Assembly (NCBI GenBank): GCA_000002445.1
Contig: CP000069.1
Span: 1,024,001-1,088,000, forward strand
Source of the DNA: Trypanosoma brucei
Lineage: Eukaryota
DNA: 64,000 nt
Direction of reading: 5' to 3'
In this document: in pieces, positions 1-17,400 of the stretch
How positions within the stretch are numbered: the first letter of the stretch is position 1
Layout of the letters: every line of letters begins with the position of its first letter
Notes under the pieces: model-generated
Told to the model about the DNA's origin: nothing
Database searches by the model: none
Seen by the model: the letters and a program-made list of their open reading frames with translations, nothing else
Program-made: the position numbers and the translations under genes

Positions 1-1446
1 GTGCACGAGGGGTACGTGTCCACGCACACATTAAAATACGCGAGCGCAATAAAATAAATATGTGTAGGATATATATAAATTTATATATGAAAAAAAAAAG
101 AGGGAATAAATTTGTAGTGTTGACGCTGACAAAAAAAAATTGAAAAAAAAATTATACGAAGCTTACAAAAAGGCGTTAAATAGGATGTCCCCACCAACAT
201 CGTGTTCCACCACAGGAATCAAAATTATGAAATTGAAATAATTTCGCCGTCGGTTCTCGGATTGCACTCGCGCATGATCTAACAACAATCAAACATAAAA
301 GAATCATTGCAAAGAAAAAGATAATAATGATAATAATAAAAACGAAGGTAAATCCAGAAACCGGAGAAAACGATATTAACGGAAGCTCTCGAAGGTGATG
401 TGGACTGTTTCCCAAAGAATTTAACATTACATAAAATTTTCCTTTTTATTTAAGTGAATTCTCTCTTTTCACTGAAATTTAGGTATTATTAGTGCTAACT
501 ACCATTTCCTCCTTTTTTTTGTTATGTTATTTCTATTTGTGCCTTTGCCTTTGAGTTTTCACTCCATGAATTCCGCAACACGTGCTAACATACTCTCATC
601 CATTTGATAATGATTTTTTCTTTTTCTTTCTTCATTTAACACTCAGTGACCTCTGTACGGCTTTCCTTCCATCTTAACAGATTCCTTCCATTTACCCCGT
701 CTTTCTGATTTCGTAACTGCTTGTATTTTATTTTATTTTATTTCTCCTTTTCACTAACTTCACACACTTATTTTTTTTATATTTTTCTTTGATACAATGC
801 TGCTGTTATAGTCATTGTTCCCCCTTTTTCCCATCGTTTTCACACCTTTTTCAAAAAAAAAAAAAAGGTCATGTGCTGCTTAACTGCTGGGGGAAAACAA
901 TGGCTGAAGAGGATGTGAATTCCTCCCCTAGCATTCATAAAAATAATAGTAATAAATGAAATAAAAAGTAATTTCTTTTGAACAATTAATATATAAATAT
1001 ATTTATATCCTCCGTTCATCGTTTTTCAATTATTATTTTTATTATTTTTATTTGAATTGCCGTCATTAACTACTCATTTTCAAGAAATGTGTTGACCTTC
1101 GCTCTTGAAGGTGTTTCCGTTTTGTTTGAGTACAAAATTGCAGATAAATCGCTTTCTTTTTTTTTGTTTCGTCTTCTCCCTTTATTCAATTTCTGTATGT
1201 ACTTCTTTTGTATTTTTAAAAAATATATAAATATATATATCTTTTCTCGATTTCAACAGACATTTGCAAAGGGAAGTGTAATGAGGCGAGGCGGGAGGGA
1301 GGGAAGGAAGGGAAGGAGTTTATGATGATGATGAGAGGAAAGGAAGCAGCACGACACCGTAACTGCAAAAATATCTCAAAGGTGAAAAAAAAATTTAATA
1401 AAAAAAAGACATAAAACAAAGCAAACGGAAAAGTAGAAAAAAGCTT

Positions 1447-1462
1447 CCCCCCCCCCCCCCCC
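1447..1462. repeat. C16 homopolymer
   Basis: Direct reading. It lies in the otherwise AT-rich 3' flank of the RRM-protein gene. Confidence 0.95.
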
Positions 1463-3645
1463 AACAAAAGACAGTGAGGATGCTCTCAAAAAAAAAAAAG
1501 GGAAAGAAAGGAGAAAAAGAGGGAGGAGAAGTCATGCAACAAAAACAACAATAATAATAATAATGAAACAGATAATTTCGAAAAAAAAAATTAAAAACGA
1601 TAAGGAAATGAAAAAAAATTTAGGTACAAAAGACAATGAAAAAAATGTAAAATAACGACTTTTACAACACCAAGAAGTTGTTTCAGAATAATATTGCAGT
1701 GACCATATTAATAAATGCAAACACACGCTTGCATGAAGACGTTGTAGCCCCCTTTTCCTCTCTGTTCTATTCCCTTATCATCTCCTTTTAAATCCGTTCA
1801 TCCATTCATTCATTCATTCACCTGTTTAAACATTTAAGCATTTACTTGATACGTCTTTTTCTTTCCTTTTCTTTACAATAACACGAGACTTTCAGGAGTT
1901 ATCGGTGAATTAATTTCCCAGTTTGTGCGAAATGAAATTCACTAACAGAAGAATTTTTAAAAATTGGAAGCATTTCTTCATTGCCATTTAAGCAATAAAT
2001 GGAGAAGCAAAAAAAAAAAAAGAATGAATAATACATTTTAAGAAAAAAAAGGAAAAAAGACTCTGAAGGTAAATAATAGGAGAAAAACGATTTGATGGGG
2101 GTTTCTGTACAACCTCATATCGTTTTAACCATATTTTAATTGCTTTCTCGGTCTTTCGAGTGTAATATTGTTGTAATATTTATCATTTTTGTTTTTTGTA
2201 TAACATATAAGTCACCTTTGTGTATTATTATTATTATTATTACACCTTTGCTTTTACTCCCTTTTACCTCTCTGTTTCCATTTGAATAACCCCTACCTTT
2301 TCTCCCCCTCCTCATAACACATGACGGAAATACATAAAACCTGCGCAAAAACGAGGTAAATTATAATACAAATACACAAGAAAAAGATTTATTTATTATC
2401 TTTTTAAATAATCCTTTTTTTTTATTTGACTCTACAACAGAATAAAATGAAATTGAAACAGCAAACAAGGATGTATCGACAAAAAAAAAAACAGAGTATT
2501 TGAAACGAAGACACCCAGTTTGTCGTTGTTTCCTGTATTTCATTTTCAAAAAAAAATTATTTATTTCGTCTCTTTCTTTTTGGTTAAACTCTTTTTCATT
2601 GCCTTTCCCTCACCACAAAGGTATCATAATTGCTACAATAACAGAAATAACAGCAACAGTAAGACTAATAATAGTAAAAACAATAATAATTGCATTCATT
2701 TTGAGCAGTGCTTTATTTTTTTAAAAAAAAACTTATTGTTTTTTAATTTCAATGCATTTCACCTCTATTTCTTCTAATTTCCCCCACTCCCCTTTTAATT
2801 CCTCTTTTTTAAAAATGAATTGGGTGCGTTGTTTCCTTACTAACTTTTGTTCTCGACTTTTATTTTTTTTCCCCCCTTCCATTTGCTCATTAATTAATTA
2901 ATTCTCACATTTGATTGACTGATTTATTTATTTATTCACATTAAAATAAAAAAAATCGATTTGTTCCTTGTGCGTTTTCTTTACTTCACTTCGCTTAACT
3001 TCACCGCTCGAAATGGTGCAATGCAAACCCGCGGGAAGAAAAGAAAAAAGAGAAAAAAGTTACCGTAATTATTTCCTCTTCTTTTCTTTTAGATTTGTTA
3101 CTATTTTTTGTTTTTTTTCCGATCCTTCCCTATTTTTTTTTTAAAAAAGGACAAAACAATAAAAGGCAACCCCAAATACTCCTTGGTAAAAAACGGAAAT
3201 AAAATAGGAAAAGACACATTTCCACATTTCCCCTTTTAAAACACACATGCGTAAACACCGCAGCATGTGGAACAAAATATTTTAAAGCTGCTTTGCAAAA
3301 AAAAAAATTTTATCCCTCAACACAAACATTTACACATATATTCGTAAATTTATATGCTCAAGTTTTTGTTTACTTTCCGTGGGATTTTACTCATTTCGTT
3401 ACTTTGTTCAGTTGTTTCTTCTGTTTAAATTATTATTTAAATATATCCTCTTAGGTTGATTTCCCTCATAATTTTCACACACATCACCAAGTACCGGGAG
3501 GGATAAAAATTAAAGGGAAATTTTTTTTAAAAAATAAGTAAATACAAAACTAGCATTAATAATAACAATAATAAAGAAGATATCACATGAGAGGAGGAAA
3601 AAAGAGTCAACAACAGGGAGGCTGAAACCCTCACCCCACCCCCCT

Positions 3646-3694
3646 CACACACACACATACACACATATATATATATATATATGTACGTATATAT
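3646..3694. repeat. compound (CA)n(TA)n microsatellite
   Basis: Direct reading: cacacacacacatacacacatatatatatatatatatatgtacgtatatat. Confidence 0.9.
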
Positions 3695-3973
3695 TGACAC
3701 ATATAAAACTATAAATAATCACATAACTTAGCCACGCCCCACAATTCTTATTATTGACTGTTTTTTTTTCTTTTCTTTTCCCCCCTCTTCCTCTTCTCCT
3801 TCTATTCTCTTTTTAACACACGCACACCACAACACCGCAACCATACGCCGCCGCCGCCACCGCCTTCCCCTTCGTTTCAATAGCCTCTGGTGGAAATGAC
3901 CATTATCACACAACTGCTGCTGTTATTGTTGTTATTAATACTATTTGTATTAATACTATTATTAATGTTACCA

Positions 3974-5017
3974 TTACCAGGGTCCATATACAAGTGTTCG
4001 CTGTGGGGGAAGTGGCACGAGTGTTGTATCCACCGCAGGCACTAAAAGAGCAGTAGGTGGCGCATTGAATTTAGTCGGGTGCAAGTTAACAGCATTGGGA
4101 GTGAGAAAAACCTGTTGTCCATTGCCCAGCACAAGTACACCATTGGCAGCTGGACAATCTGCAGTTTGTAACGGCACAGTTGCAGCAGCCCCGTCATAAC
4201 TCATATCAACTGGCAACAGTGGCGGCATTGCTGTCACTGGTGAGGTTGAAAAATATAACGGTTGCGCCCGAGGTTCTACCTCCACCATCGGTGCCACCAT
4301 TTTCGTTTTCGTCACATGATGTGCAGCGGGGGAACATGATGGTGAAGTTTCCGTAGCGGATTGCGACACCTGAGTTTGATTTAAACTCACAACACCGGGC
4401 CGTGGAGGCGGGAACAGGCAAGCGCCCTTCAGCGCAGGTCCGGGTGCCAGTCGTCCCTCTTCACGCCGCCGTCGTCGCTCACGTTTCGCCTCGTCGGTAT
4501 CGGCATATTTAACCATGATGGGAGGGCCTCCGAAGTGGTTGGAGTTGCCGTGTAATTTATCCAGCACCCGTTGGGCGTTCTGAGGGGTGTCAAACTCAGC
4601 GTAAACAACCCAAACGGGATTGCCGTGATGATCTCCACGCATTGCGCAATACTCAAGAGGGGCGAGGTTTGAAAGGAAATTTTGCACCTCCCGTTCCCCC
4701 ATGGTGGTGGGGATATTTCGGATATAAACTGCCCGTGATGGTAACGTGACTGCTTTGCCGTTGTGTTGTGAAGGATAAATGAGGAGGTTGAAGCTGCTAT
4801 TGCAGACACGCACGAGTTTGCGGTTGAGACGTTCATAAGCCGTCCTCCCTTCCTCCTCCTTATCAAAAAGTACAAAACCAAATCCTTTGCTGTTGCCAGT
4901 GGAGGGGTCTAACATTATCTTAGCACCAAGTGGGTTGAAATTACTAAAAATTTGAAGCAAGTCACCGTCACAAAGGTGACGTGGTAACTTTGCTACGAAC
5001 AAATTACTGTACCACAT
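3974..5017 (-). CDS. RNA-binding protein with two RRM domains (DRBD-type)
   Basis: 347-aa ORF; ATG at 5015-5017 checked on the sequence. RRM1 lies near the N-terminus with RNP1 KGFGFVLF. RRM2 has RNP2-like VYIRNI and RNP1-like VWVVYAEF. A basic KRERRRRREEG linker follows, then a Pro/Thr/Val-rich low-complexity C-terminus. Confidence 0.8.
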   Translation of the reverse strand: MWYSNLFVAKLPRHLCDGDLLQIFSNFNPLGAKIMLDPSTGNSKGFGFVLFDKEEEGRTAYERLNRKLVRVCNSSFNLLIYPSQHNGKAVTLPSRAVYIRNIPTTMGEREVQNFLSNLAPLEYCAMRGDHHGNPVWVVYAEFDTPQNAQRVLDKLHGNSNHFGGPPIMVKYADTDEAKRERRRRREEGRLAPGPALKGACLFPPPRPGVVSLNQTQVSQSATETSPSCSPAAHHVTKTKMVAPMVEVEPRAQPLYFSTSPVTAMPPLLPVDMSYDGAAATVPLQTADCPAANGVLVLGNGQQVFLTPNAVNLHPTKFNAPPTALLVPAVDTTLVPLPPQRTLVYGPW

Positions 5018-8000
5018 TAACGCTTCTGGTGCTAAAGTGTTGTTGTTGAAGTGGAGTTTTTTTTTATGTTTTGTGTTTCCTGCTTGTGCTTGTGCTTGTT
5101 CTTGATGGGATAACGATGTCTGTCCTTCCTTATGTTTTCTTTTTTCCTTTAACTCTTACCCTTTTCCGATTTGTTTAATATTATTATTTTTTTTCCTTTT
5201 TCACGTAAACGTCTTTTTTTTTTCAATTGCTTTCTTCTTCTAATCTTTATACCAACCCCTTCTCCCCTTGCGCGAATGGGGTGGATCTATTATTTTATTC
5301 GTCCCTTTTCAAAAAAAAAAAAACAACAACAACAACTGGGCACCCCGTTTTTTACCGCTTTTGATTGCTTCTCCCCCCTTTTTGCTTTTCGTTGTTTTTA
5401 TTCCGTATATATTTAAATATTTATGTATTTAAATATTTAGAGGTGTATAAATTGTCTTTGCTATTGCTCCTTTTCTTTTTCCTTCCTTCGTCTCTTTCTT
5501 GTTTGCGTATCTCTGTTAGTTGTTCTTTTTTTTTTTCTTGAGGAAAGGGATGTGTTGGGTCCCGTTTCTATCAATCAAGAAAGTGATTGATCGATGCAGA
5601 AACGACACGAACCGTCTAACCTCTTATTTTTCTTTTTTTCCCTTCTTCTTCTTCCTTTATTCCTCTTTATTTTTTTTGTTACTTTTGTTCTTTTTGCTTT
5701 TAAACTTGTGAAGAGTTTTCTATTATTATTATTATGATTTTACTTTCCCCTTCTTTTTTTCTGGTTTCCAACCTAAAGGCAATAAAATTGTGATTTTCGT
5801 TTGGTAGGTTGTGCGGAGTATCTCAACAGGTCCTGTTGGCGCTCAATGACGATCCCACCACCACGTGATTCACCTAAAAAAAAAAAATTAATTTAAAAAA
5901 TTTGCCTTTGCTTATTTATTTATTCCTTTTGGGTTGCCTACGCTTTTTTTTCCTTTTTCCTCTTTCCTTTATTGGCTCCAATAATCTCCTTTTTTTTTTG
6001 TCTTCCTTCCCTTATACAAGACGGGAAAAAACTGTGATTTGCCCGTTTTTCCTTCTTTAATCCTTTTTTCTTTTTTTAAAAAAAACAAAAAAACAAATAT
6101 ATATTTATATATGATTGATCTTATTTTTTTTTCCCCCTTCCCCCTAATTTTTTTTTTTGCTTCGTCTCCCTTTTACAAGCCTTCTCCCTTCAATCTGGTC
6201 AAAGCTGTCTTTTTCGATATGTTTTTATTTTTTTTATTTTTTAGTTTTGTTTTGAAGGAGAGTACAAATAAATAAATAAATAACAAAGACATTTAAATTA
6301 ATGAAGTTAAGTACAAGCAGAAAGGAAGAGAAGAGAATGGAATAAAATAAAAATATGTATTGATTGCACAATAGGTGAAATTCACATATATAAATGTAGA
6401 AATAAATGAATGCATGTTTTTATGGGGGAAATATATATATATATATATAACAAAATATGATATAAAATAAAATAAATAATATTAAAATATTAAGTTGTTT
6501 TCAATTTCAAATACAATTACTTAATAAATCTCTACAATTCACAGATTTTAATTAATCGCCACATCGCATAACGCCACAACATACAGAAATGCACACATGT
6601 ATGTGTTCAAAACATATGAAATATATGCTTCTAAGAAAAAATTTAAAAAATGTATATATATATATATATATATAACTATATGATTTCAACTAAACTATAC
6701 TTGTGCTATTTAAAGTGAGGGAGTGGGGGGAAAAAAGAAATGTATACAGACGAGTATATATTTATATATATACATATATAAATGAAGTATTATTCTTCAG
6801 GATAGTGGCAAAATATAAACAGACGCCAAAGAGAAAGATTTGGGTGCAGCATTAAGCAGTGAGGCAAGTGAAAAAAAATTTAAAAAAAACATTACTCATT
6901 TTTTTTTAGTTTGTTTTTTTTTTCTTCGATGATGTGTCTTTTGACGAGAGGGAATAGTGAACATAATATAAAAATAGACTTCAGTAACACAAAAAAAAAG
7001 TGAAGAAGAAAGAAAAAGAAAGGGGAAGATACGTGGGATGAAACGAAAACAAAAAAAATCTGAAAATAGGAAAAATCAAATGAAAAAAAAAACACCAAAA
7101 AAAAAAGGAAAAGATAAAAATTAAAAAAAAATCGGCACAACATTAAAAACACACAAACAAAACGGAAATTTGAAAAAAAAAGAAAGAAATAGAGAAAAGA
7201 AGATTGATGAAAAGAAAATTAAACAAAATTGGTCAAACACACACAAACAAACACACGCATACATAAATACATAAATACATACAACAAAAAAAAAAGGGCA
7301 TCGGGTAACGGGGTACTAATTATTATTATTATTATTTATCATTATTTTTTCCTTCCCTTTTGAAGCATCATTTCATTTCATTTCATTTTGTTTTTTTTTT
7401 CGTTTTGATCCTTTTGTTTCATATCCAGTGCCCAAAATTTTTGTTGCCTTCTAATCATTTCTCGAAACCCACAAATCCTTTTTTCTTTTTTTTCTTTTTT
7501 TTTTTTAAAAAAAAGAAGAAGAGTTAAATATAAAATAATAATAGTAATAGTAATAATAATAAAGAGTCCTCTCTTCCCACATTTTCGTTCTTTTTAAATT
7601 TAATTTAATATTATTTTTTCTCTCTTCAGTGGTGCGCATAAAAAAAAAAAAAAGAACACATGAAAAAGTAACTTCTCCATAATTGGGTTGAATTTCAGGA
7701 GATTTCGGAACGAAGAGGTATCACACAAAAATGAAAAATAAAAAGTAAAAAAAGTAAAAAAAAACAAAACAAAAAAGAGAGAAAGAGAAGTGTGAAAGAA
7801 AAGAAGCAAAAAGGTAAAAAAAACGGGTTTGAGAGTAATGAAGTGAAGTGGATATGAAGTGATTACGTCTGAACACGTAAAAGGTCACAAAAAAAAGGAA
7901 AATATTTTTTAAAAATAAAAATGATGGAGAATTTGAGGGGAGTGGCAAAAAAAAAACAAACAAAAACACACACACTTCCTTCCAACTTTCTCCCTACCCG

Positions 8001-8346
8001 TATAAATAAATATCTCATATTTGCTTCATTACTTCATTTCACTCATTTTATTTTACTTTTTTTTTTGTAACTCTCGTCTTTTCGTCACTTGTGTATCATT
8101 ACTCCGATAACATTTCATTTCCCTTCCCCTTTTTTTTCTCTTTCTCTCTATCTCTATCTCTTTTTCTTTTTTTAATTTGTTCCTTTTTATGGGTTCTCTT
8201 TCAGGCGATGGCACAAAAATAGTAATGATACCGATGGAAGTGTAAACAATAACAAAAAGAAAAAAAAAGAAAAAGAAAAAAAACCGAAAAAAGATGACGG
8301 TACCATCGGCGCCATTTTTCTTTTTTTTTTTTAAAGGAAGCAGCAG

Positions 8347-8403
8347 TAATAATAATAATAATAATAATAATTGTAGTAGTAGTAATTGTTGTTGTAGTAG
8401 TGG
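8347..8403. repeat. (AAT)8 then degenerate (TAG/TTG)n trinucleotide repeats
   Basis: Direct reading. This accounts for the spurious poly-N/S ORF at 8294-8488. Confidence 0.9.
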
Positions 8404-9375
8404 TGTTGCTTTCTTTTTTTTTCTTCTTTTGTGTAACATCAACATCAGAAAAAAAAAAGTTCTTTTACAAAAAATTATTTTTTTTTAAAAAGAAAAAAAA
8501 AGTAACACACAAACACAAACACAAACACACAAACATTTTAAGGAACGAAAAGTCGTAAAAATATTATCCAGTAATGCAAAATGAAGTGACACTTGCAAAC
8601 TTCCTCCTGTTCCTTTTCCTGCTCATGTCCTTTTGTTTTCCCCCATCCCTCAGCCCTTTCCTTTTTTTTAAAAAAAATTACAACACACACAAACACACAA
8701 ACACATAAATATATATATATATATATAAAGAAGTCCCCACTTTTTTTTTAAAAAACTCTTTGTAAAGATCAAAAGAAAAAAAAAGAAAAAATTACTATTT
8801 TTATTCTTATTGTTGCTATTTCTTTTTTTGGTTTGTTTGTTTGCTTCCTGTGCCTGATTGTAATTTTTTTAAAAATTTTTTCCCTACGTCACCATTATAT
8901 TCCCAACATTTGTCACATCTCCTTTTTCGTACCTCTTCATGTTCGAATTGGCGAAATCAATGCGAGAATATAAATAAATAAATATATTTATCTATTTTTT
9001 TTTTCCTTCTTCAACTGTTTCAATAATAAATTTTTTGTATTTATTTCTTTCCTTTTTTTTTGTTACTTTTGCTTCCCCCTTCTTTTTTTTCTTTCCTCCA
9101 TTATAACTTGCAGTGCCTCCATTTCCTTTTCCTTTTTATTTTTTTTCATTCCCATTTCTTTACCTTTCATCATCATCATTTCTTTTTTCTTCTTTTCTTC
9201 TTCTCACGTTCCGCTGTCATTTTATTTCTTTTTATTTTTATCATTTTCGAGTAAACCTCCGCCCCCCTCATCTCAACCACAGTCCCATCATTAATTCTTT
9301 ATTATTTTTTTTCCTTTTCTCTTTTTTTCTCTTCTCTTTTTTTTTCTTTTCTCCTCCCCATACCAAAAAGAAAAA

Positions 9376-9415
9376 AAAACAAAACAAAACAAAACAAAAA
9401 TAAATAAATAAATAA
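9376..9415. repeat. (AAAAC)5 followed by (TAAA)4; a similar (CAAAA)6 recurs at 12549-12578
   Basis: Direct reading. Confidence 0.9.
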
Positions 9416-10462
9416 TTTTTTTTTTAAAAAGAAGATCTCGACGCGATTATCCTCGTGGGGAGTCGTATCATATCGAAAAGGAAAGGAAAAAAAAAGAAGA
9501 AATGCGGGAGAGGTGAATAAAAGATAAATATATAAAAAGAAAAGATGAGGAGAACACATACAAAAAAACATAAACATACAAAAAAAATTAAAAGAAATAA
9601 AAAGAAATGGATGAAAAGGTTCAGATATGGAAAAGAGGAAAGGAGACACCAAAGCTCAAACATTAGGGGAAACAAAAAAATTTTTAACAAAAAATAAGAA
9701 GAACAGATACAAAAACTAATGAGGGAAATATTTAAAAAAAAACAACAATCACACAAACGCAAAGCATGAAAACAATAGAGGAGGGGGGAATAATAAAGGT
9801 ATAAAAAGAAACAAAAAAAAACCAAATTTAAAATAAAAACAAAGCAGAAAGAAGAAAAAAAGAAAAAAAAAGAGAAATCAAAAAAAAAAAAAACAGATGC
9901 CTCCTTTGCATTTACTTAAGACCCTTCAGGACAGATGCGTTGAAAAGGGCATCGTATTGCATTTATGTATGTTGTGCGTAGAAATAAATATGGAAATAAA
10001 TGAAGAGAAAAGGAATTAACGAAAAGTCGTAACGCTGTAAATAAGGAGAGAATCCCCCTCCTTATGCATTCTTCGCTTATTGATGTAATGCTTCAATTCG
10101 CTTCATTCGTTGAATCAAAATATATATTTTTTAAAAATTGTTTCTTTCTTTCTTTCTTGCACTGCACTCTCCTTTTCCTTTACTACTTCATATTTTCCCA
10201 TGACATCACATACATGCATAAATGCACACACATGTAAATAAACCAACTTATATTTATATATTCATAACACACGGTACAGTACAGTGTGATGCCCGAAATG
10301 AAAAAAAAAATCAAAACCAAAAACAAACCAAAAAGAAAAAAAACATTGAAAGAAGGAAACAGAATAAATCAACGAGTGTTACGGATTGGAGGCGAGAGAA
10401 GGTAAAAGTACGCGTGATTAATTATAAAACAAAAGTGCAGGTGAGGAAAAATTAGTTATACC

Positions 10463-10486
10463 GATGATGATGATGATGATGAAGAT
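10463..10486. repeat. (GAT)7 trinucleotide repeat, non-coding
   Basis: Direct reading. Confidence 0.9.
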
Positions 10487-11580
10487 AGTTACAAAGTGGA
10501 AGCTAAAGGTGACGTGATAATAATAATAATAAACAACTGAGATATATATTTAAATATAAGTTAGAAATAAAAAAGAAAAAGAAATGCAGCGAAGCTCACA
10601 ACGAACAAAAAAAAAAAGAAAAAAAAGCAATGATTCGACCGAAACAATGAGTGAGTGTGAGTAGGAAACAAAAGAAAAAAAAGATATAAAGAAAAAAACA
10701 AAAAGGAACCATGAACAAAAACTGCGCGGATAAATAAACAAAAAAACAAAAACGATATCACAAAAGGGTTTGTATGATCGCGGTACTCTGCGGCAACACC
10801 AGCATCATTTATTTTCTCCTTTACGGTACGCGCGCCAGCAAATGGCTTGTCAGACTTTTTTGTTGCGCATATATTTTTTTTAAAAAAAGGAAAATTGAAA
10901 AAACAAACCTAAAATTAAAACTTTAATATGAGAACAACAACAAAAAAAAACGAAGATGATATCAAAACAAAAATAGGACCCTCATTGCCCATTGAAAAGT
11001 AAACTAAAATATTTAAAACATAAAAAACAACAGCTTAAGGTCTGATACTGACAGAAGAAGAAGAACAAAAAAAAAAAGAGAAATAAGAGCAATCTGAAAA
11101 CTTGAAGTCGAGCCTTCGCACCCTTAATAGTAATAATAATGATATTAATAATGAAACTGTGCGGTAACTTTCCCTCACCTCTCTTCCCCATATTTATGTT
11201 TTCTTTTTTTTCCTTTTAATTAGTCATCAGATCCTTTGGTTTTATTATTATTATTATTATTTATATTCCTTCTTTTATTTCTCTTCATTTCATTTTTCTC
11301 ATTTATTCTTCTGGTTACCTATCTGTTGATCTATTGATTGATTCATTTTGCATCGCTTTCCTTTTCCTTCTCTCCTTTTCTTTTGTGCTTTTGCATATTT
11401 TTTTATCTCTTATTCTCCTTTGCATTTTTTTTTTTGGTAAAGTGTGGAAAGGGAACTAAGAGGAATTCCTTTTTTAAAAAATAAAAATCCCCTTTCCCAC
11501 CTAAACCTCATATCTCAATTACGTTTCTCCTTCCTTCCTTTCTTATTTCCTTTTTTGTGTCTTTTTTTTTCCATTAATTT

Positions 11581-11603
11581 CCCCCCCCCCCCGCCCCCCT
11601 CCC
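11581..11603. repeat. C12-G-C6 homopolymer tract followed 40 bp later by (TA)10 at 11641-11661
   Basis: Direct reading. Confidence 0.95.
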
Positions 11604-13003
11604 ATTCAACTTCATTTCGTTCCGTCCATTTTAGATGTTGTATATATATATATATATATATTCTTCCCTCCCTCTGCTTTCTTTCTCATTTTGCTTTTTC
11701 GTCATAAATATATATTTGTGTAAACGTTGTCCATTAATATGGGCGTTGCTATTAGAAAATGGGAACAAACACAAATACAAAATAAGGAAAAAAAACAAAC
11801 ACGCAACGGAGAGACGGGAGCCAAATAACGAAAATGGAAACAAAAAAAGGTAATAAAATCAGGATTGTGTTTCAGGAGAAAAAGAAAGTAAGGAGCAAAA
11901 TTCGTAAAAGCTGCTACAAGGGAGTGAGAAGCAAAAACAAAAATAAAAAAAGGAAAATGATGAGAGAAAATAAAGATGGAAATAAAAAAAACAAATGAAA
12001 AGGTTATTTGAAAAAAAATTAAAGATGTTACTTTCTTTTACTATTTCCCTCCCTAGTCCTTTCATTCCGTTGAGTTGGCAAGTCGAGAGAACTTTATTCA
12101 TCATTTGCTTTTTTTTTATTTTCTCCTTTTTTTTTTGGAGGGGGGGGTTTCATTTTAAGTTTTTTCTTTGTTCCCAACAACTTTTGATATTAGAGGGGAA
12201 TTCGTGAAGCAAATATGAAGCCAACGAAAGGGAACTCCCCACACGCGCACACGCCCCGGTCAAATCCACTGCTTTTTCTTTTCCTTTTTTTTTTGCTATC
12301 TTCAGTTGATTGTTATTATTATTATTACTATTTTTCCCTTTTTCATTTTTTTTCGTCTTGGTTTGTAGGAAATTCTCCTTTTCACTGCTTACCACTCACA
12401 TTTACTTCATCAATTCCTTTTTTTTTCCTCCTCAACTTTTTTCCTTCCTTTATTTTACGTCCTCCTCCTCCTCCTTTCCCTTCCCTTTTTCCTTCTGTTC
12501 CGCTTAGATTCAAATAGAAAAATAAAAATAAAAATAAACTTAGCGAACAACAAAAACAAAACAAAACAAAACAAAAAAGAGGAAAGTTTCCTCCATTCAT
12601 GCGGTATAACACCACAATCACAATCAGAATCACCACACGTACAGATACAAATACGCGCAAATCCAATTACACAAAAAAAACACAACGCACAATTTCCCTA
12701 CTTTTCTTACTTCTTTTTTTTTTTATTCTTCAATTAAATCATACCTTTTCCTTTTCCTTCCTTATTTTCCCACTTTTTCTTTTTTCCTCACCCACTCAAC
12801 CATTTTTTTTTCTCTTTTTTTAAAAATATTTTCATTCCTTCTTCATTCTTTTCCTCCTTTCATTTCTTTCTTTCTTTTTATTTTTTTTTAAAATTATCTT
12901 TCCTTCCTACTAATTTCCGATGCAGTTTTTTTTTCCTTCTTTTTTTTCTCTTTTTCTTTTTTTTTCTCTTTTTCTATTTTTGTTTTTCCCCTTTCCAAAT
13001 GTC

Positions 13004-13312
13004 TCAATCCTCCAACCTTACGCTGTAAAAACTGTACGGATCATGGCGGAAGCGTGAGGCATAAGCGGGTGGGAGAACCATTTCATTTTGCACAGCAGCG
13101 CTGTATGGAGGTGGTGGCGGAAGGTCGGGTTTCTCACCATGTGAAAAGGCGCAACGGGACCCAAACGAGCAATGCGCACCGAACCGATAATTACGGCACG
13201 GTTGCGTGCGGAATTTGCTGGCGTCAACACCCCTGCGTCCATTACGTGAGCCACTGAAGCTGAGGCTGTTTTCTGATCGCACGTCGGAAAGAGTGGGTGT
13301 TGAAATGTGCAT
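13004..13312 (-). CDS. ZFP1: small CCCH zinc-finger protein, ZFP1-type (single C-x8-C-x5-C-x3-H finger plus PPPPY motif)
   Basis: 102-aa ORF; ATG at 13310-13312 checked. Finger is CRNYRFGAHCSFGSRCAFSH (C-x8-C-x5-C-x3-H) preceded by KFRTQP. A PPPPY (PY/WW-ligand) motif lies downstream. The size and architecture match the trypanosome ZFP1 class. The ZFP1 name is inferred from architecture, not from sequence identity. Confidence 0.7.
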   Translation of the reverse strand: MHISTPTLSDVRSENSLSFSGSRNGRRGVDASKFRTQPCRNYRFGAHCSFGSRCAFSHGEKPDLPPPPPYSAAVQNEMVLPPAYASRFRHDPYSFYSVRLED

Positions 13313-14417
13313 TGCCGCTCTCCTTTTTCTTTTCTTCTTCTCTCTCTTTTTTCCTTCCTGTTTTCCTTCCGGGTTATCTCTTCTTGCTTTTTGGTATGTC
13401 CTTCGTACCGTATGCTTTTCTAAAGTTTTCCGTGAAGTATTGTTGTTCTTCCTTCTCTTCGTGAATGCTCCTGCTTAACGGTGTTGTCGCCTCTTTAGCT
13501 GTATTCAAGGAGTGAATAACAGATAGATGGCTGTAATCCCGAGAAAACTTTTTTTTTTATTGGTGTAAGTTTCGCTTAGTGCTAAAAGGAAAAAAAAAAG
13601 GTCGCTTGAGGTCTGCTGTGGGAATGGAAATCTCCTTCTTATTGCAAAAATAAAGAAAAGAGAAAGAGAAAGAGGAAACGTTTATAAAGAATAACTTCTT
13701 CATATGGAAATAATAATAATAATGGGAAAATAACACAAAAGGATGAGTGTTTAAAAACATAAGATGATAAACACAAGCGGGAGTTGTTGCTGCAAAGATT
13801 GAGACAGACCTAGCATCAGTAAGAGGTGAACCATGAGTTGAGTGACATGGAAAACCGACAAACAAATAAAGAAAGAAAAAACATATTATTTGGCGCTTTT
13901 CAGTTACCCATACACCAAAAAAAGCAAAATTTCATTTAGTAGAATGACGGGTATGTGTTTCTTCTTGCTCTTTTTCCTTTTTGGTATTATTAATATTACT
14001 ATAATAATAATAATTACTGTTATTATTATTATTATTTTTTTTTTCTTCACTCATTTTTTTTGCCGACAGATGTTGAAAACAAACAAACAAAAGCAAACAA
14101 AGGGACAAACAGTTCCTAACTTCTACTACCCAATATTTTCCTCCTTTCCCTTTCCTATTGCCTCATCCACATAGGCAAACGCACAGCCACACAAACGCGA
14201 ACACAAATAACCAGAAGTGGGCGAGCAGGCGCGACATCCCGGTAACCACCTTTGACCAACTTCAAAAGTTCTCCTTTTCTTTCCTCATTTTTTTTTGTTT
14301 CTGAATGTTCTTTTCTTCTCTTCTTTTCCTTCCCCTCCCTCGGCGTATGCTCCGGATTTCTATGCTTTTTTTTTGCAAATTCCTCCACTCCGCAATTTAA
14401 CCCTTCTCACCGCATAA

Positions 14418-17400
14418 TTATATCGGTGGTGGCTCGTCATCATTTCCAACGGCACTTGTTGAAGCAAGTGTAATCGAAAGTAACTGTTGCTGATGGTTGT
14501 TACGATGCGTATTTTCCAAATAACCACCCACACGAGGCCCTGAAAGGAAGAGATCGTGGCTTTGCTCTTTATATTTTGCCCAGACAGGACTTGCTGAGAG
14601 GATCTCCTCCACGCGCTGACCATGAATGGGATCCTTCAGATCTGCGATTGCCTTAAGGACTTTAATGATAAGAGCCCGTACAGCCGCCGGAGCCTGATCT
14701 CCACACACTTCAGGGGTGAGTCCATTCTCTAACCATTCGAGTAAGCGCTGGACAAGTTGATTTTGAAGGGCGAGGCGTAAAATGTTAACACGAGAGGATG
14801 GACGGGAAAAAAGACGGCACAACATATCCATGAGAATCGGCAACTGCGATGGGTGGGACCGCTGGTATGCGAGGAGGGATGCGATAAGATCAAAGTTCGC
14901 CAAACTCTCTACACAAACAGGAGAACCACATTCTTCACGTACCAACTTCAGCGCATTCTCTGATACCACGTCTTCCGGCGATTCCATTAGTGTAAACAAC
15001 TTTTGGGCATATCCAAGGGAAACTATGTGATCCACCATCGAGCTAGTTGTTCGAAGCAGTGTGAGAGCTGAGTCGGCAACAAGTGTGAGGATTTCGGCAT
15101 TACGTTCCCCTGCAGAGCGACCACATTCCTCTGCGAAACGGCCCAACAGGGCTGAAAGAAATTCCTTCGGTTTCCGAACCACCCACCCCGATTGGCTCAA
15201 GTACCTCTTCAAGTACACACCGCCAACCTGCAACTCATCGATGTTCTCAACCATGATGCTCTCCGGCAAACTCCACGTGGCGCTGGGGGAGCGCTGCAAC
15301 AATGCAGCAATCTCTTCCTGATATGTGGTGCAATTATCCACAAAGCGAGCTCGGCGCTCTTTAGTCCACACCAACTCGGGAGTTTCCTGGTAGGTGTCGA
15401 GAAGCTGGCAGGCGGCCACGGGGTTCTCTTTCATGGTATCAAGTATAGCGTAAGGGAGCAATTTTAATATGTGCAGTGTCGCCTTTGGTCCCCACAATTT
15501 ATTTGTGCTTATTTTCACGAGAGCCAAACAGGCATCATTCCTACATTCTGGGTTCGTTGTCGTTGCAATAATGCGAAGCAGCAATACATACAAGCCACGA
15601 TCAAAGGCTTGCTGTACAAAAGCACACTCCGGAAGTGCCACATTGAGGAATGCAAGACAACATCGTTCCACTGCAACACCATCACGAACCATAGCCAACA
15701 ATACTTCGGTAACAGCTGTATCAACCCTACACATAGCCTCAAGACAGTTACGATGAAATGTAACCTTCTCCAAAAGCTCAGATGATTTGATTGTGATGGC
15801 GGTGTCCTTGTACGAAAGTAGTTTTAACAAAATAGCTACATATCGCTCCAGAACAGTTGCCACATCGGCGGTTTGGTACGCAACTACCAAGTTCTTCGCC
15901 GCCTCCACTACCATGAGCACGCCCTCAGAGGAGTTCTTACCAATCTGAGCCTGCAGGTACGCCATTAAAGCACTACAGAAGGCAGCAGGCTCCTCAATAG
16001 GGTAATTGGATTGCTCATTATATATTCGCACAAACAAATCACCCACAATAAGCTCATCCTTATGGAGTTTGTATATGAAGCGCTCATCGATGTTAAAAGG
16101 TAGATCATGAGTAACCATGCCACCGTTAAAGCACTTCTCAGAGTTTGAACCCACAATCTCCAACAACTGCTCACGTGTTTCGTTGTTCCACAATAGGTAT
16201 GGCGTTTCGTGATTTGTGTTGAGCATCTTCAAAATCTCTTCCTCTGCACCCGGAAGTTTTGACATCTTCTGGATTATAAATGGGGTTAGTAATCTCTTAA
16301 GCGCCGTGAACACTTTGGCATTGCTAGGCGTGTTCAAATAATCCTCAGATGGCACAATACCGGCCATAGCATATAGAGCCTGTAGCGCATAAACTGCCGC
16401 ACGGTTGGCGAAAAGTTGTGTATGATTTTCCTCCTGCATCTCGATTCCGCTCTGAACCAATGTCGAATCGTAACGGAAAAGGAGAAGTAAGAGATGCCAC
16501 ATCGCACCGTGTTGTATAACACGCTCCTGCAAAACGTCGTCCACGCACAACTCACGGCATGTTTGAATGCAGGCGCGGGAAAGTGCCAGCGCCTTATCGT
16601 ATGCGATGCCTTTGGCCGCAAAATGGCAGATCGTAGGTTCTAGATGAATGCGGCTACGGGATTCAGGGAACTTAGCAGCGACGGAGAACGTGAGCATGGT
16701 GTTACACAGTATCTTCACTTGCGTAAGGTCGTCGGTCGCAGCTGGTGTGAGTGTCTCGGAGCAACGCTGCATAACTGCTGAAAGTAAAGCTATTCCACCT
16801 TCCTCCTGAAGCTCATCAGCGTTAAGAGAAACATTACGCACGGTGTGATAACACAATTCCATTGCTGGTACCATGAGGACGGTGTCTTTGTGTAGCATGT
16901 TGGGGTCCTCATACTCCATCTTGACAAGTTTTAACAGGAGACTGTAACCAGCGTACTTGTAGCGACTCAGCGTTTCAGCATGACGTTTATACAGAATAGA
17001 TTGGGTTCGAAGAAGGAGGTCAATGTTATTTGGATCGGGTTCGCTTGACTCCAGCGTGTCTGACGCGAGAAACTCGTATGCTACCTGAATACGTTCGAAT
17101 TTATCACGTCCGTCTGGGTTTTTGTCAGGGTGATACTTTGCCGCGAGCTTAAAGTATGCCTTGCGCACCGTCTGCTGCGTGGCTCCCGTCGCCTCCGTAA
17201 TACCAAGTTCTGCCAAACAACCTTCACGACTGAGTCCACTCGGTTTCTTTTCTAGTTCACACTGCCACGCAATGAGAACTTCGCGCAATAGTGAAATAGG
17301 ATCGGCAATAGGCCAGTTTGGGTAGCGTAGTTCATCACACAAGTGTCGCAGATAATATTGTGAACAGAAAAGCTCGCGCTTAAGTTGCTCATATACTATG

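What the first reader, a model, noticed from the sequence alone, without database searches (positions are those of the whole stretch)
5018..13003. ORF-free low-complexity interval of about 8 kb between two RNA-binding-protein genes
Elsewhere in the window genes are separated by 0.3-2.9 kb. Here 7986 bp separate the stop of the ZFP1-type CCCH gene from the ATG of the two-RRM gene. The interval is made of alternating blocks, several hundred bp each, that are purine-rich or pyrimidine-rich on the plus strand. Examples are pyrimidine-rich blocks at 9060-9360, 12200-12520 and 12700-13000, and purine-rich blocks at 6280-7300, 7500-7950, 9440-9900 and 10290-10750. Embedded in it are a few non-repetitive GC-richer islands at 5801-5875, 9890-10120 and 10766-10860. 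One possibility is an exceptionally long regulatory 3'UTR of the CCCH gene; trypanosome RNA-binding-protein mRNAs often carry multi-kb UTRs. Another is that it hosts unannotated non-coding transcripts such as lncRNA or snoRNA precursors with their own splice and poly(A) sites. The multiple sense-strand polypyrimidine blocks would fit the latter.
Basis: partly seen in the sequence, partly recalled or inferred. Interest (0 to 1): 0.55.

Follow-up and report, generated by a model that had tools for sequence, protein, structure and literature searches.

The report
Giant UTRs between ZFP1 and DRBD5
The 8-kb gene-free stretch is real, but about three quarters of it is the already-annotated 6.2-kb tail (3'UTR) of the Trypanosoma brucei ZFP1 mRNA, and most of the rest looks like an unusually long, start-codon-free leader of the next gene, DRBD5.

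Summary
The gap is 7,986 bp, against 227-2,901 bp elsewhere in the window. It has no credible ORF and strongly alternating purine and pyrimidine blocks.

The window is T. brucei TREU927 chromosome 6 (window coordinate + 1,024,000). All genes lie on the minus strand.

Published nanopore-guided curation (Trenaman 2024) annotates window 6847-13003 as the 6,157-nt ZFP1 3'UTR. That paper's reporter screen scored three fragments of it:
- A-rich, stop-proximal part: positive.
- U-rich middle: negative.
- Mixed distal part: positive.

This fits the paper's model, in which A-rich purine tracts activate and U-rich pyrimidine tracts mask them.

I found no snoRNA, tRNA, conserved island, conserved reading frame or pseudogene relic.

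Two additions:
1. The 1,272 nt upstream of the DRBD5 ATG contain no sense-strand ATG, where 10.3 are expected. T. congolense (1,536 nt) and T. vivax (1,624 nt) share this property without any sequence similarity. I infer a giant AUG-free DRBD5 5' leader that starts near window 6210, not near 5280.
2. T. vivax, T. cruzi, T. rangeli, T. melophagium and T. theileri carry a second ZFP1-like gene in this interval. T. brucei has lost it without trace.

Verdict: mostly already known; modest interest.

The parts
13004..13312 (-). ZFP1 (Tb927.6.3490) coding sequence, 102 aa, one CCCH finger
   Evidence: ORF and translation. An identical protein is named zinc finger protein 1 in T. equiperdum and the Trypanozoon group. 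It is encoded on T. b. gambiense chromosome 6.
6847..13003 (-). ZFP1 3'UTR, 6,157 nt (published annotation). On the sense strand it alternates A-rich purine and U-rich pyrimidine tracts.
   Evidence: Trenaman 2024 Supplementary Data 1 gives the UTR as 1030847-1037003. The +1,024,000 offset is cross-checked against the UTR ends of Tb927.6.3550 and Tb927.6.3570, which match the ORF stops at window 32159 and 42024. My strict count gives 8.0 A-rich and 8.3 U-rich tracts of at least 9 nt per kb. Other inter-CDS DNA in the window has 2.3 and 4.0.
11247..13003 (-). Stop-proximal, A-rich part of the 3'UTR. It scored positive in the published reporter screen.
   Evidence: Fragment NA_peak_1200: 'increased', log2FC 4.83. 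Sense composition is A 41% and U 27%, with 12.0 A-rich and 4.0 U-rich tracts per kb.
9433..10791 (-). Central, U-rich part of the 3'UTR. It scored negative in the published reporter screen.
   Evidence: Fragment NA_peak_1199: 'decreased', log2FC -1.70, p 0.042, FDR 0.072. Sense U is 49%, with 12.5 U-rich and 0.7 A-rich tracts per kb.
6847..8794 (-). Distal, mixed A- and U-rich part of the 3'UTR. It scored positive in the published reporter screen.
   Evidence: Fragment NA_peak_1198: 'increased', log2FC 2.47, has_DS_splice_site = yes. It has 7.7 A-rich and 10.8 U-rich tracts per kb.
6211..6846 (-). Processing spacer between the ZFP1 poly(A) site and the predicted DRBD5 spliced-leader acceptor. 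Sense polypyrimidine tracts lie at about 6740-6712 and 6337-6262. Candidate AG acceptors lie at 6706 and at 6210/6206. It also holds (TA)n microsatellites.
   Evidence: Sequence reading and polyY/AG scan. The 6740-6712 tract lies 107-135 nt downstream of the poly(A) site, which fits the 80-140 nt rule quoted in PMC11405848. All nine sense ATGs between the poly(A) site and DRBD5 fall here, at 6775-6292. Which acceptor is used is inferred, not shown.
5018..6289 (-). AUG-free, purine-rich stretch ending at the DRBD5 start codon. Predicted DRBD5 5' leader of about 1.19 kb if spliced at 6210/6206.
   Evidence: It has 0 sense ATG, where dinucleotide shuffles give 10.3 +/- 2.5 (minimum 3 in 2,000). 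None of its 87 AT dinucleotides is followed by G. It is the longest ATG-free run on either strand of the window. The other 16 genes have 5-468 nt. The property is conserved in T. congolense (1,536 nt, 12.0 expected) and T. vivax (1,624 nt, 20.5 expected).
3974..5017 (-). DRBD5 (Tb927.6.3480) coding sequence, 347 aa, two RRMs
   Evidence: ORF and translation. Orthologues were found across trypanosomatids. The gene ID and name come from PMC5413900 and PMC5380359.

Best explanation
Almost the whole interval is mature-mRNA UTR sequence on the minus strand, not empty spacer and not a hidden gene. It has three parts.

1. **Window 13003 to 6847: the 6,157-nt 3'UTR of ZFP1.** The mRNA's 309-nt coding sequence is about one twentieth of its length. 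The alternating blocks are A-rich polypurine and U-rich polypyrimidine tracts. In T. brucei, A-rich tracts raise expression and U-rich tracts lower it. The U-rich tracts are proposed to mask the A-rich tracts by intramolecular pairing. Many RNA-binding proteins can also dock on such a UTR.
2. **Window 6846 to about 6211: a spacer of about 640 nt.** It carries the polypyrimidine tracts that couple ZFP1 polyadenylation to trans-splicing of the next mRNA.
3. **About window 6208 to 5018: a DRBD5 5' leader of about 1.2 kb.** Selection has kept it free of upstream AUGs, so scanning ribosomes can reach the DRBD5 start codon.

**What is shown and what is inferred.**
- Shown, from the published annotation and screen: the 3'UTR extent, the fragment effects, and the presence of a downstream splice site within 732 nt of the poly(A) site.
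- Shown here: the AUG depletion and its conservation across salivarian trypanosomes.
- Inferred: the exact acceptor, that the leader belongs to DRBD5 rather than to a separate RNA, and the masking mechanism.
For: **Published annotation and screen.**
- The 3'UTR coordinates and the three reporter-assay fragments come from PMC11405848.
- That annotation was curated from nanopore direct-RNA reads and from SL and poly(A) reads.
- The coordinate offset is verified on two further genes.

**Fragment direction tracks composition.**
- A-rich fragment: up.
- U-rich fragment: down.
- Mixed fragment: intermediate.

**The architecture is the one described for long T. brucei 3'UTRs.**
- The published description covers long 3'UTRs of RNA-binding-protein and kinase mRNAs, and includes a masking model.
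- The interval holds 93 purine:pyrimidine complementary arm pairs of at least 30 nt. One example is 12937-12971 with 8254-8288, 89% complementary over 35 nt.
- Clayton 2019 states that RNA-binding-protein mRNAs often have multi-kb 3'UTRs.

**The leader.**
- It has 0 ATG in 1,272 nt, where 10.3 are expected. The property is conserved in T. congolense and T. vivax without sequence similarity.
- The has_DS_splice_site flag is based on the position of a site, not on how far the fragment overhangs the UTR end. For this fragment it is 'yes'. That places a splice site in window 6115-6846.

**The same block architecture occurs in the syntenic intervals of six other trypanosomes**.
Against: **No reads were mapped here.**
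- Poly(A) and SL site usage, alternative isoforms and 3'UTR-derived fragments are taken from a published annotation or inferred.
- The interval has 37 sense polypyrimidine tracts of at least 12 nt, and 24 of them have an AG within 80 nt. Internal processing is therefore physically possible.

**The expression pattern does not fit the published class.**
- ZFP1 mRNA is about 16-fold up in procyclic forms.
- The published class of long dual-tract UTRs is enriched among mRNAs that are up-translated in bloodstream forms.
- ZFP1 therefore does not fit that expression pattern.

**The reporter evidence has limits.**
- The negative fragment is only marginally significant (FDR 0.072).
- The strongest positive fragment also contains the ZFP1 CDS and upstream sequence.

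**The acceptor is uncertain.**
- The rule-of-thumb partner of the poly(A) site is AG 6706, not 6210. A transcript spliced at 6706 would carry nine upstream AUGs.
- The splice site flagged in the published table might belong to an annotated lncRNA rather than to DRBD5.

**Sequence conservation is weak.** Within the T. brucei group the interval varies at 2-4% of columns, against 0.2-0.8% in the CDSs. Most individual positions are therefore weakly constrained.
Confidence: 0.8

Rival explanations
1. The interval hosts one or more independent non-coding transcripts with their own splice and poly(A) sites. These could be lncRNAs, possibly snoRNA precursors like grumpy/snoGRUMPY near RBP7. A candidate is an RNA from AG 6706 to a poly(A) site about 100 nt upstream of the T-tract at 5335-5311. 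Others could be 3'UTR-derived fragments from cryptic sites.
For: - Many sense polypyrimidine-AG combinations exist inside the interval.
- Candidate acceptors at 6706, 5874 and 5305 follow T-rich tracts.
- T. brucei has about 1,500 annotated lncRNAs. Roughly 20% of them are detected only as parts of UTRs.
- Cryptic splice sites generate lncRNAs when DRBD3 is depleted.
- The annotated lncRNA set of Guegan 2022 could not be inspected, because no supplement is held.
Against: - No Rfam family reached threshold. The sub-threshold hits are bacterial or plant families.
- No tRNA was found.
- The only C/D-box-like match is antisense and lies inside a (TGA)n repeat.
- The islands show no excess structure and no conservation in six species.
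- The nanopore table of novel intergenic lncRNAs has no chromosome 6 entry beyond 729,771.
- Nanopore-guided manual curation drew one continuous UTR.
- The total absence of AUG in 5018-6289, conserved in T. congolense and T. vivax, is a constraint that makes sense for a translated mRNA's leader. It does not make sense for a non-coding RNA.
Confidence: 0.12
2. The interval contains a missed gene or a decayed pseudogene: the ZFP1B paralogue that sits between ZFP1 and DRBD5 in other trypanosomes.
For: - A second ZFP1-like CCCH gene of 106-125 aa lies in the syntenic interval in four species: T. cruzi, T. vivax, T. melophagium and T. rangeli.
- In T. theileri a ZFP1-like gene is called just upstream of DRBD5.
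- Their ZFP1-to-DRBD5 spans of 4.9-9.5 kb bracket the 8.0 kb of T. brucei.
- A weak tblastn hit of T. cruzi ZFP1 lies on the correct strand at window 9969-9898, with E about 0.5.
Against: - A profile HMM of ten ZFP1A/B proteins finds nothing in the six-frame translation. All scores are negative.
- The best tblastn score is 18.5 bits, while locally shuffled intervals average 18.8 bits. 57% of shuffles score at least as high.
- The T. brucei ZFP1 CDS has no DNA match in the interval.
- Every sense ATG ORF is low-complexity and is broken or altered in sister genomes.
- The homologue search returns a single T. brucei-group ZFP1 cluster.
- The literature lists ZFP1B as extra in T. cruzi.
Confidence: 0.03
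3. The interval is plain intergenic spacer. The low-complexity DNA would have expanded by microsatellite slippage. It would have short conventional UTRs at each end and no function.
For: - Variation among T. brucei-group genomes is high (2-4% SNP columns).
- There are many slippage indels, and interval length varies from 7,986 to 8,259 bp.
- No primary-sequence conservation with other species was found.
Against: - The published annotation treats 6.2 kb as UTR, and three fragments changed reporter expression.
- AUG depletion over 1.27 kb is far beyond chance and is conserved.
- A long ZFP1-proximal non-coding span is present in every trypanosome examined, at 2.2-5.3 kb to the next gene.
Confidence: 0.05

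Closest known systems
RBP10 (>7 kb) and ZC3H20/21/22 (>4 kb) 3'UTRs of T. brucei: the long regulatory 3'UTRs of RNA-binding-protein mRNAs
   Same: - A multi-kb 3'UTR on a small RNA-binding-protein gene.
- Dense A-rich polypurine and U-rich polypyrimidine tracts.
- Several independent regulatory fragments in the reporter screen.
   Different: - RBP10 is specific to bloodstream forms. ZFP1 mRNA is enriched in procyclic forms.
- The RBP10-binding motif UAUUUUUU is not enriched in the ZFP1 3'UTR: 2 observed against 5.1 +/- 2.2 expected.
- No dissection of the ZFP1 UTR has been published, as far as I could find.
grumpy lncRNA / snoGRUMPY near RBP7 (Guegan et al. 2022, PMC9200285)
   Same: A non-coding stretch next to a differentiation-regulating RNA-binding-protein gene in T. 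brucei.
   Different: - No snoRNA signature, no Rfam hit and no conserved or structured island was found here.
- The published curation shows a UTR rather than a separate gene.
T. cruzi ZFP1A/ZFP1B tandem pair
   Same: The gene order is the same: RME-8-like gene, then ZFP1, then DRBD5. The intergenic DNA has the same purine/pyrimidine block style.
   Different: - T. cruzi, T. vivax, T. rangeli, T. melophagium and T. theileri keep a second CCCH gene inside the interval. In four of them its core is near-identical to the ZFP1A of the same species; the T. rangeli pair is clearly more diverged.
- T. brucei has none, and no relic either.
Ordinary trypanosome 5'UTRs
   Same: The stretch sits directly upstream of the start codon, downstream of polypyrimidine tracts with AG acceptors, and lacks upstream AUGs.
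   Different: T. brucei 5'UTRs have a median of 82 nt and rarely exceed 250 nt. This one would be about 1.2 kb, and 1.5-1.6 kb in T. congolense and T. vivax.

Membership tests
Long polypurine/polypyrimidine-rich regulatory 3'UTRs of T. brucei (Trenaman 2024) | Annotated 3'UTR longer than 2 kb | tested here: met
   6,157 nt, coordinates 1030847-1037003. This is taken from the published table and was not re-derived from reads.
Long polypurine/polypyrimidine-rich regulatory 3'UTRs of T. brucei (Trenaman 2024) | [quoted passage not shown] | tested here: inconclusive
   My stricter count gives 8.0 A-rich and 8.3 U-rich uninterrupted tracts of at least 9 nt per kb. That is 2-3.5 times the rest of the window's inter-CDS DNA. 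The paper's motif matrices were not available, so the 20-per-kb threshold could not be applied.
Long polypurine/polypyrimidine-rich regulatory 3'UTRs of T. brucei (Trenaman 2024) | Fragments alter reporter expression in the massively parallel assay | tested here: met
   Three fragments: log2FC +4.83, -1.70 (FDR 0.072) and +2.47. These are published data read from the supplement.
Long polypurine/polypyrimidine-rich regulatory 3'UTRs of T. brucei (Trenaman 2024) | mRNA up-translated more than 3-fold in bloodstream forms | tested here: not met
   ZFP1 mRNA is listed as 16-fold up in procyclic forms. ZFP1 protein rises during differentiation to procyclic forms. Translation-efficiency values for ZFP1 were not retrieved.
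snoRNA genes or clusters (C/D or H/ACA-like) | Match to a curated covariance model, or C and D boxes on the transcribed strand | tested here: not met
   No Rfam hit at gathering score in the whole window. Nothing relevant at E up to 5 in 4900-13100. The only TGATGA...CTGA match in the interval is antisense and lies within a (TGA)n repeat.
Independent trans-spliced, polyadenylated lncRNA | Own SL-acceptor and poly(A) clusters with full-length reads | not testable with these tools
   No read data were available. Indirect evidence: absent from the nanopore table of novel intergenic lncRNAs. The annotated Guegan lncRNA list is not held.
ZFP1-family CCCH gene or pseudogene | Recognisable CCCH finger and PPPPY/RFRHDPY core in any frame | tested here: not met
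   HMM search of the six-frame translation gave only negative scores. tblastn scores are no better than shuffles.
5'UTR of a translated mRNA | Depletion of upstream AUGs relative to composition, ending at the start codon | tested here: met
   0 ATG against 10.3 +/- 2.5 expected over 1,272 nt. T. congolense has 0 against 12.0, and T. vivax 0 against 20.5.
5'UTR of a translated mRNA | Mapped spliced-leader acceptor at its 5' end | not testable with these tools
   Only indirect evidence is available. A native splice site is flagged within window 6115-6846. Polypyrimidine tracts are followed by AG at 6210/6206.

The most novel reading that the evidence does not exclude
DRBD5 in salivarian trypanosomes carries a 5' leader of 1.2-1.6 kb. 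It is selectively kept free of AUG but is otherwise unconserved in sequence. In this organism leaders have a median of 82 nt and rarely exceed 250 nt. DRBD5 is among the mRNAs most strongly up-translated in bloodstream forms. The leader could therefore be a stage-specific translational control element, for example a purine-rich platform that is masked or unmasked, or a test case for kilobase-scale scanning. A second novel reading is that the T. brucei ZFP1 3'UTR became this long by absorbing the territory of a lost ZFP1B paralogue.
Probability: 0.45. Interest if true: 0.55.

Novelty: already known. Interest (0 to 1): 0.33.

Why it matters
**For the finding as posed, little changes.**
- The long ZFP1 3'UTR and its purine/pyrimidine tract architecture are already annotated and have a published regulatory model.
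- The value here is negative. There is no hidden gene, snoRNA or conserved element to chase.

**Two by-products could matter to trypanosome RNA biologists.**
1. **A conserved, kilobase-long, AUG-free leader on DRBD5.**
   - DRBD5 is a regulator recovered in a screen for repressors of stumpy-enriched transcripts.
   - It is one of the most stage-regulated mRNAs at the level of translation.
   - The leader would give a concrete handle on 5'UTR-based translational control, which is hardly explored in kinetoplastids.
2. **The ZFP1B paralogue is widespread, not specific to T. cruzi.**
   - It occurs in T. vivax, T. cruzi, T. rangeli and the T. theileri group, and is specifically missing from T. brucei.
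   - This reframes ZFP1B and dates a loss in the ZFP differentiation-regulator family.

Tried and rejected
- **Rfam.** A scan at gathering score over the whole window, and at E up to 5 over 4900-13100, gave nothing relevant.
- **tRNA scan.** None found.
- **C/D-box pattern search.** It gave only an antisense match inside a microsatellite.
- **Folding the three islands and a neighbouring segment.** None showed excess stability. Only a hairpin at 5545-5610 did (z = -2.93).
- **Cross-species blastn** against T. vivax, T. congolense, T. cruzi, T. rangeli, T. theileri and T. melophagium. Only CDS matches and scattered low-complexity matches on both strands appeared. There were no collinear conserved blocks.
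- **ZFP1B relic hunt.**
  - tblastn gave a hit with E about 0.5 at 9898-9969, which I first took as a lead.
  - The profile HMM found nothing.
  - DNA search with the T. brucei ZFP1 CDS, and shuffled controls, showed the hit is at chance level.
- **RBP10 motif UAUUUUUU.** It is not enriched (2 against 5.1). The apparent UAUUUAU excess (15 against 4.4) comes partly from (ATTT)n microsatellites, so I discounted it.
- **Literature and supplement searches for annotated lncRNAs at the locus.**
  - The Guegan 2022 supplement is not held.
  - The DRBD3 2025 supplements have no hits.
  - The nanopore Table S5 has none here.
- **Hendriks 2001**, the original ZFP1 paper with northern blots, is not held.
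- **L. major locus.** It has no ZFP1-like gene within 10 kb upstream of its DRBD5-like gene and was uninformative for the leader.

Full report
**1. Where we are**

All ORFs of at least 150 aa that look like genes lie on the minus strand. The window is therefore part of one polycistronic unit read from right to left.

- The 102-aa CCCH protein at 13312..13004 is identical to 'zinc finger protein 1' of the Trypanozoon group.
- The 347-aa two-RRM protein at 5017..3974 is encoded beside it on T. b. gambiense chromosome 6 and in T. equiperdum assemblies.
- The literature gives Tb927.6.3490 = ZFP1 and Tb927.6.3480 = DRBD5.
- Supplementary Data 1 of Trenaman et al. 2024 (PMC11405848) lists the ZFP1 3'UTR as Tb927_06_v5.1:1030847-1037003, and the DRBD5 3'UTR as ending at 1027973.
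- Those coordinates leave 1029018-1037003, or 7,986 bp, between the two CDSs. That is exactly window 5018-13003.
- The implied offset of +1,024,000 is confirmed on two more genes. The UTR ends at 1056158 and 1066023 fall one base before the ORF stops at window 32159 and 42024.

The window is therefore T. brucei TREU927 chromosome 6, about 1,024,001-1,088,000.

**2. The observation**

- The gap is 7,986 bp. The other 15 inter-ORF gaps are 227-2,901 bp.
- GC is 0.295.
- The variance of purine content in 150-nt windows is about 14 times that of dinucleotide-preserving shuffles.
- The longest sense-strand ATG ORFs (130, 91, 83 aa and shorter) are poly-L/F/K translations. In T. b. gambiense or T. 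equiperdum their matches show a lost start codon, a stop, or gaps and fragmentation.

**3. What most of it is**

The published, manually curated annotation makes window 6847-13003 a single 6,157-nt ZFP1 3'UTR. The curators used nanopore direct-RNA reads together with spliced-leader and poly(A) reads in Apollo.

The same paper's massively parallel reporter assay recovered three fragments from it. I computed their sense-strand composition.

| Fragment (window) | Reporter effect | Sense composition |
|---|---|---|
| 11247-14591 | increased, log2FC 4.83 | UTR part: 41% A; 12.0 A-rich and 4.0 U-rich tracts per kb |
| 9433-10791 | decreased, -1.70, FDR 0.072 | 49% U; 12.5 U-rich and 0.7 A-rich tracts per kb |
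| 6115-8794 | increased, 2.47 | UTR part mixed; 7.7 A-rich and 10.8 U-rich tracts per kb |

- This matches the paper's general result. A-rich polypurine tracts raise expression, and U-rich polypyrimidine tracts lower it.
- The two kinds of tract co-occur at high density in the long 3'UTRs of mRNA-binding proteins and kinases.
- The authors propose that U-rich tracts mask A-rich tracts by base pairing.
- Consistent with that proposal, the interval contains 93 inverted pairs of at least 30 nt. The A-rich tract just after the ZFP1 stop (12919-12987) is 74-89% complementary to U-rich tracts at 9835-9903, 8254-8288 and 7159-7202.
- The block architecture is not peculiar to T. brucei. The syntenic intervals of T. 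vivax, T. congolense, T. cruzi, T. rangeli and T. melophagium, and of T. b. gambiense, show variance ratios of 5.6-22.
- One mismatch with the published class remains. ZFP1 mRNA is enriched in procyclic forms, 16-fold in the nanopore study. The dual-tract long UTRs are enriched among mRNAs up-translated in bloodstream forms.

**4. Hidden RNAs**

I found nothing that supports snoRNA or structured-RNA genes.

- No Rfam hit at gathering score anywhere in the window.
- Only irrelevant bacterial or plant families below threshold in 4900-13100.
- No tRNA.
- No sense-strand C/D-box pattern.
- The islands at 5801-5875, 9890-10120 and 10766-10860 have raised GC. They fold no better than shuffles.
- The islands have no counterpart in six other species.
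- Among T. brucei-group genomes the interval varies fairly evenly, at 10-20 variable columns per 500 bp. The flanking CDSs have 1-4. There are many slippage indels.
- The nanopore study's table of novel intergenic lncRNAs has no entry on chromosome 6 beyond 729,771.

Independent or cryptic transcripts cannot be excluded without reads. There are 37 sense polypyrimidine tracts of at least 12 nt, and 24 of them are followed by an AG within 80 nt. Cryptic splice-site use within UTRs is documented in T. brucei.

**5. The DRBD5-proximal 1.8 kb**

- On the sense strand all nine ATGs between the ZFP1 poly(A) site and the DRBD5 start lie at 6775-6292. From 6289 to 5018 there are none.
- Dinucleotide-preserving shuffles of that segment give 10.3 +/- 2.5 ATGs, never fewer than 3 in 2,000 shuffles.
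- None of its 87 AT dinucleotides is followed by G.
- It is the longest ATG-free run on either strand of the 64-kb window.
- The other 16 genes have 5-468 ATG-free nt upstream.
- The property holds in T. b. gambiense and T. equiperdum (1,253-1,275 nt).
- It recurs in T. congolense (1,536 nt, 12.0 expected) and T. vivax (1,624 nt, 20.5 expected), although blastn finds no similarity between these leaders.
- Non-salivarian species have 341-617 nt.
- In each species the upstream end of the stretch abuts polypyrimidine tracts.

The published table flags the fragment ending at window 6115 as containing 'the native downstream splice site'. Other rows show that this flag depends on the position of a real site, not on mere overhang, because overhangs of 519 and 598 nt are scored 'no'. 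A splice acceptor therefore lies in window 6115-6846.

I infer that DRBD5 mRNA carries an AUG-free, purine-rich leader of about 1.2 kb (66% purine). It would be spliced at the first AGs (6210/6206) after the 6337-6262 polypyrimidine tracts.

The AG at 6706 lies behind the 6740-6712 tract, which is 107-135 nt from the poly(A) site. It may be an alternative acceptor.

T. brucei 5'UTRs have a median of 82 nt and rarely exceed 250 nt. DRBD5 is among the ten mRNAs most up-translated in bloodstream forms. It does not explain the further 970 nt of AUG avoidance upstream.

**6. Evolutionary context**

In other trypanosomes a second ZFP1-like CCCH gene lies between ZFP1 and DRBD5.

| Species | Locus | Second CCCH gene |
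|---|---|---|
| T. cruzi | L007 | 7564-7941 |
| T. vivax | L009 | 14572-14904 |
| T. melophagium | L011 | 12582-12902 |
| T. rangeli | L012 | 15658-16035 |
| T. theileri | L005 | 6996-7277 |

- In T. cruzi, T. vivax and T. melophagium the two copies share near-identical cores but have distinct termini, which suggests gene conversion. The T. rangeli pair is more diverged.
- The ZFP1-to-DRBD5 spans are 4,855-9,500 bp.
- T. brucei has one ZFP1, of the 'A' type at both termini.
- There is no detectable relic in the interval. The HMM scores are negative. tblastn scores are at the level of shuffles, and the ZFP1 CDS has no DNA match.
- The literature describes ZFP1B as an extra T. cruzi homologue. 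The distribution seen here instead suggests an ancestral pair with loss on the T. brucei lineage.
- The T. congolense contig held covered only 3.4 kb upstream of DRBD5 and showed no CCCH gene there.
- Whether the 6.2-kb T. brucei UTR absorbed former ZFP1B territory is speculation. It is consistent with the lengths.

**7. Verdict**

- The first interpretation (a long regulatory 3'UTR) is right for 77% of the interval, and this is already published.
- The ncRNA interpretation finds no support.
- The rest is best read as a processing spacer plus a remarkable AUG-free DRBD5 leader.
- The finding is known biology with one modestly novel by-product.

Noticed in passing
window 5018-6289 (minus strand); L008 1948-3483; L009 18222-19845: There is no sense-strand ATG for 1,272 nt upstream of the DRBD5 start, where 10.3 are expected. 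The same holds for 1,536 nt in T. congolense and 1,624 nt in T. vivax, despite no sequence similarity. This implies a giant AUG-free 5' leader.
   Followed up: yes
L007 7564-7941; L009 14572-14904; L011 12582-12902; L012 15658-16035; L005 6996-7277: A second ZFP1-like CCCH gene (ZFP1B-like) lies between ZFP1 and DRBD5 in T. cruzi, T. vivax, T. melophagium, T. rangeli and T. theileri. It is absent from T. brucei, with no relic. In T. cruzi, T. vivax and T. melophagium the two copies share near-identical cores, which suggests gene conversion; the T. rangeli pair is more diverged.
   Followed up: yes
L007 18026-18664; L005 18339-19289; L013 16670-18172; compare L001 4336-10572: T. cruzi, T. theileri and L. 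major carry a second DRBD5-like RRM gene 5-7 kb downstream of DRBD5. T. melophagium also has a second copy on the same contig, but its position was not determined. The T. brucei group has none in the 6.2 kb downstream. There the next gene is an unrelated 254-aa protein. This region is the annotated 5.6-kb DRBD5 3'UTR, part of which is window 1-3973.
   Followed up: partly
window 5545-5610 (minus strand): A local hairpin (about 9-bp stem inside a longer stem) lies within the predicted DRBD5 leader. Its MFE is -20.6 kcal/mol and z = -2.93, with 1 of 200 shuffles folding as well. It was not checked in other species.
   Followed up: no
window 12919-12987 versus 9835-9903, 8254-8288 and 7159-7202: The A-rich tract immediately after the ZFP1 stop codon is 74-89% complementary to several distant U-rich tracts of the same 3'UTR. 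These are candidate partners for the published masking model.
   Followed up: partly
window 9846-9893, 7771-7806, 7172-7298, 10330-10359 (minus strand): Several of the longest sense polypyrimidine tracts inside the ZFP1 3'UTR have no AG within 80 nt downstream. This might reflect avoidance of cryptic trans-splicing. It was not tested against a composition-matched expectation.
   Followed up: no
window 6847-13003: The ZFP1 3'UTR holds only 2 RBP10-type UAUUUUUU motifs, where 5.1 are expected, although ZFP1 mRNA is procyclic-enriched. Repression in bloodstream forms, if it occurs, is unlikely to rely on RBP10 sites.
   Followed up: partly
L002 and L003 versus window 11078, 8721 and 7732: T. b. 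gambiense and T. equiperdum carry extra non-microsatellite insertions relative to TREU927: 88+21+23 nt at about 11078, 46 nt at about 8721 and 33 nt at about 7732. These account for interval lengths of 8,159-8,259 bp.
   Followed up: no
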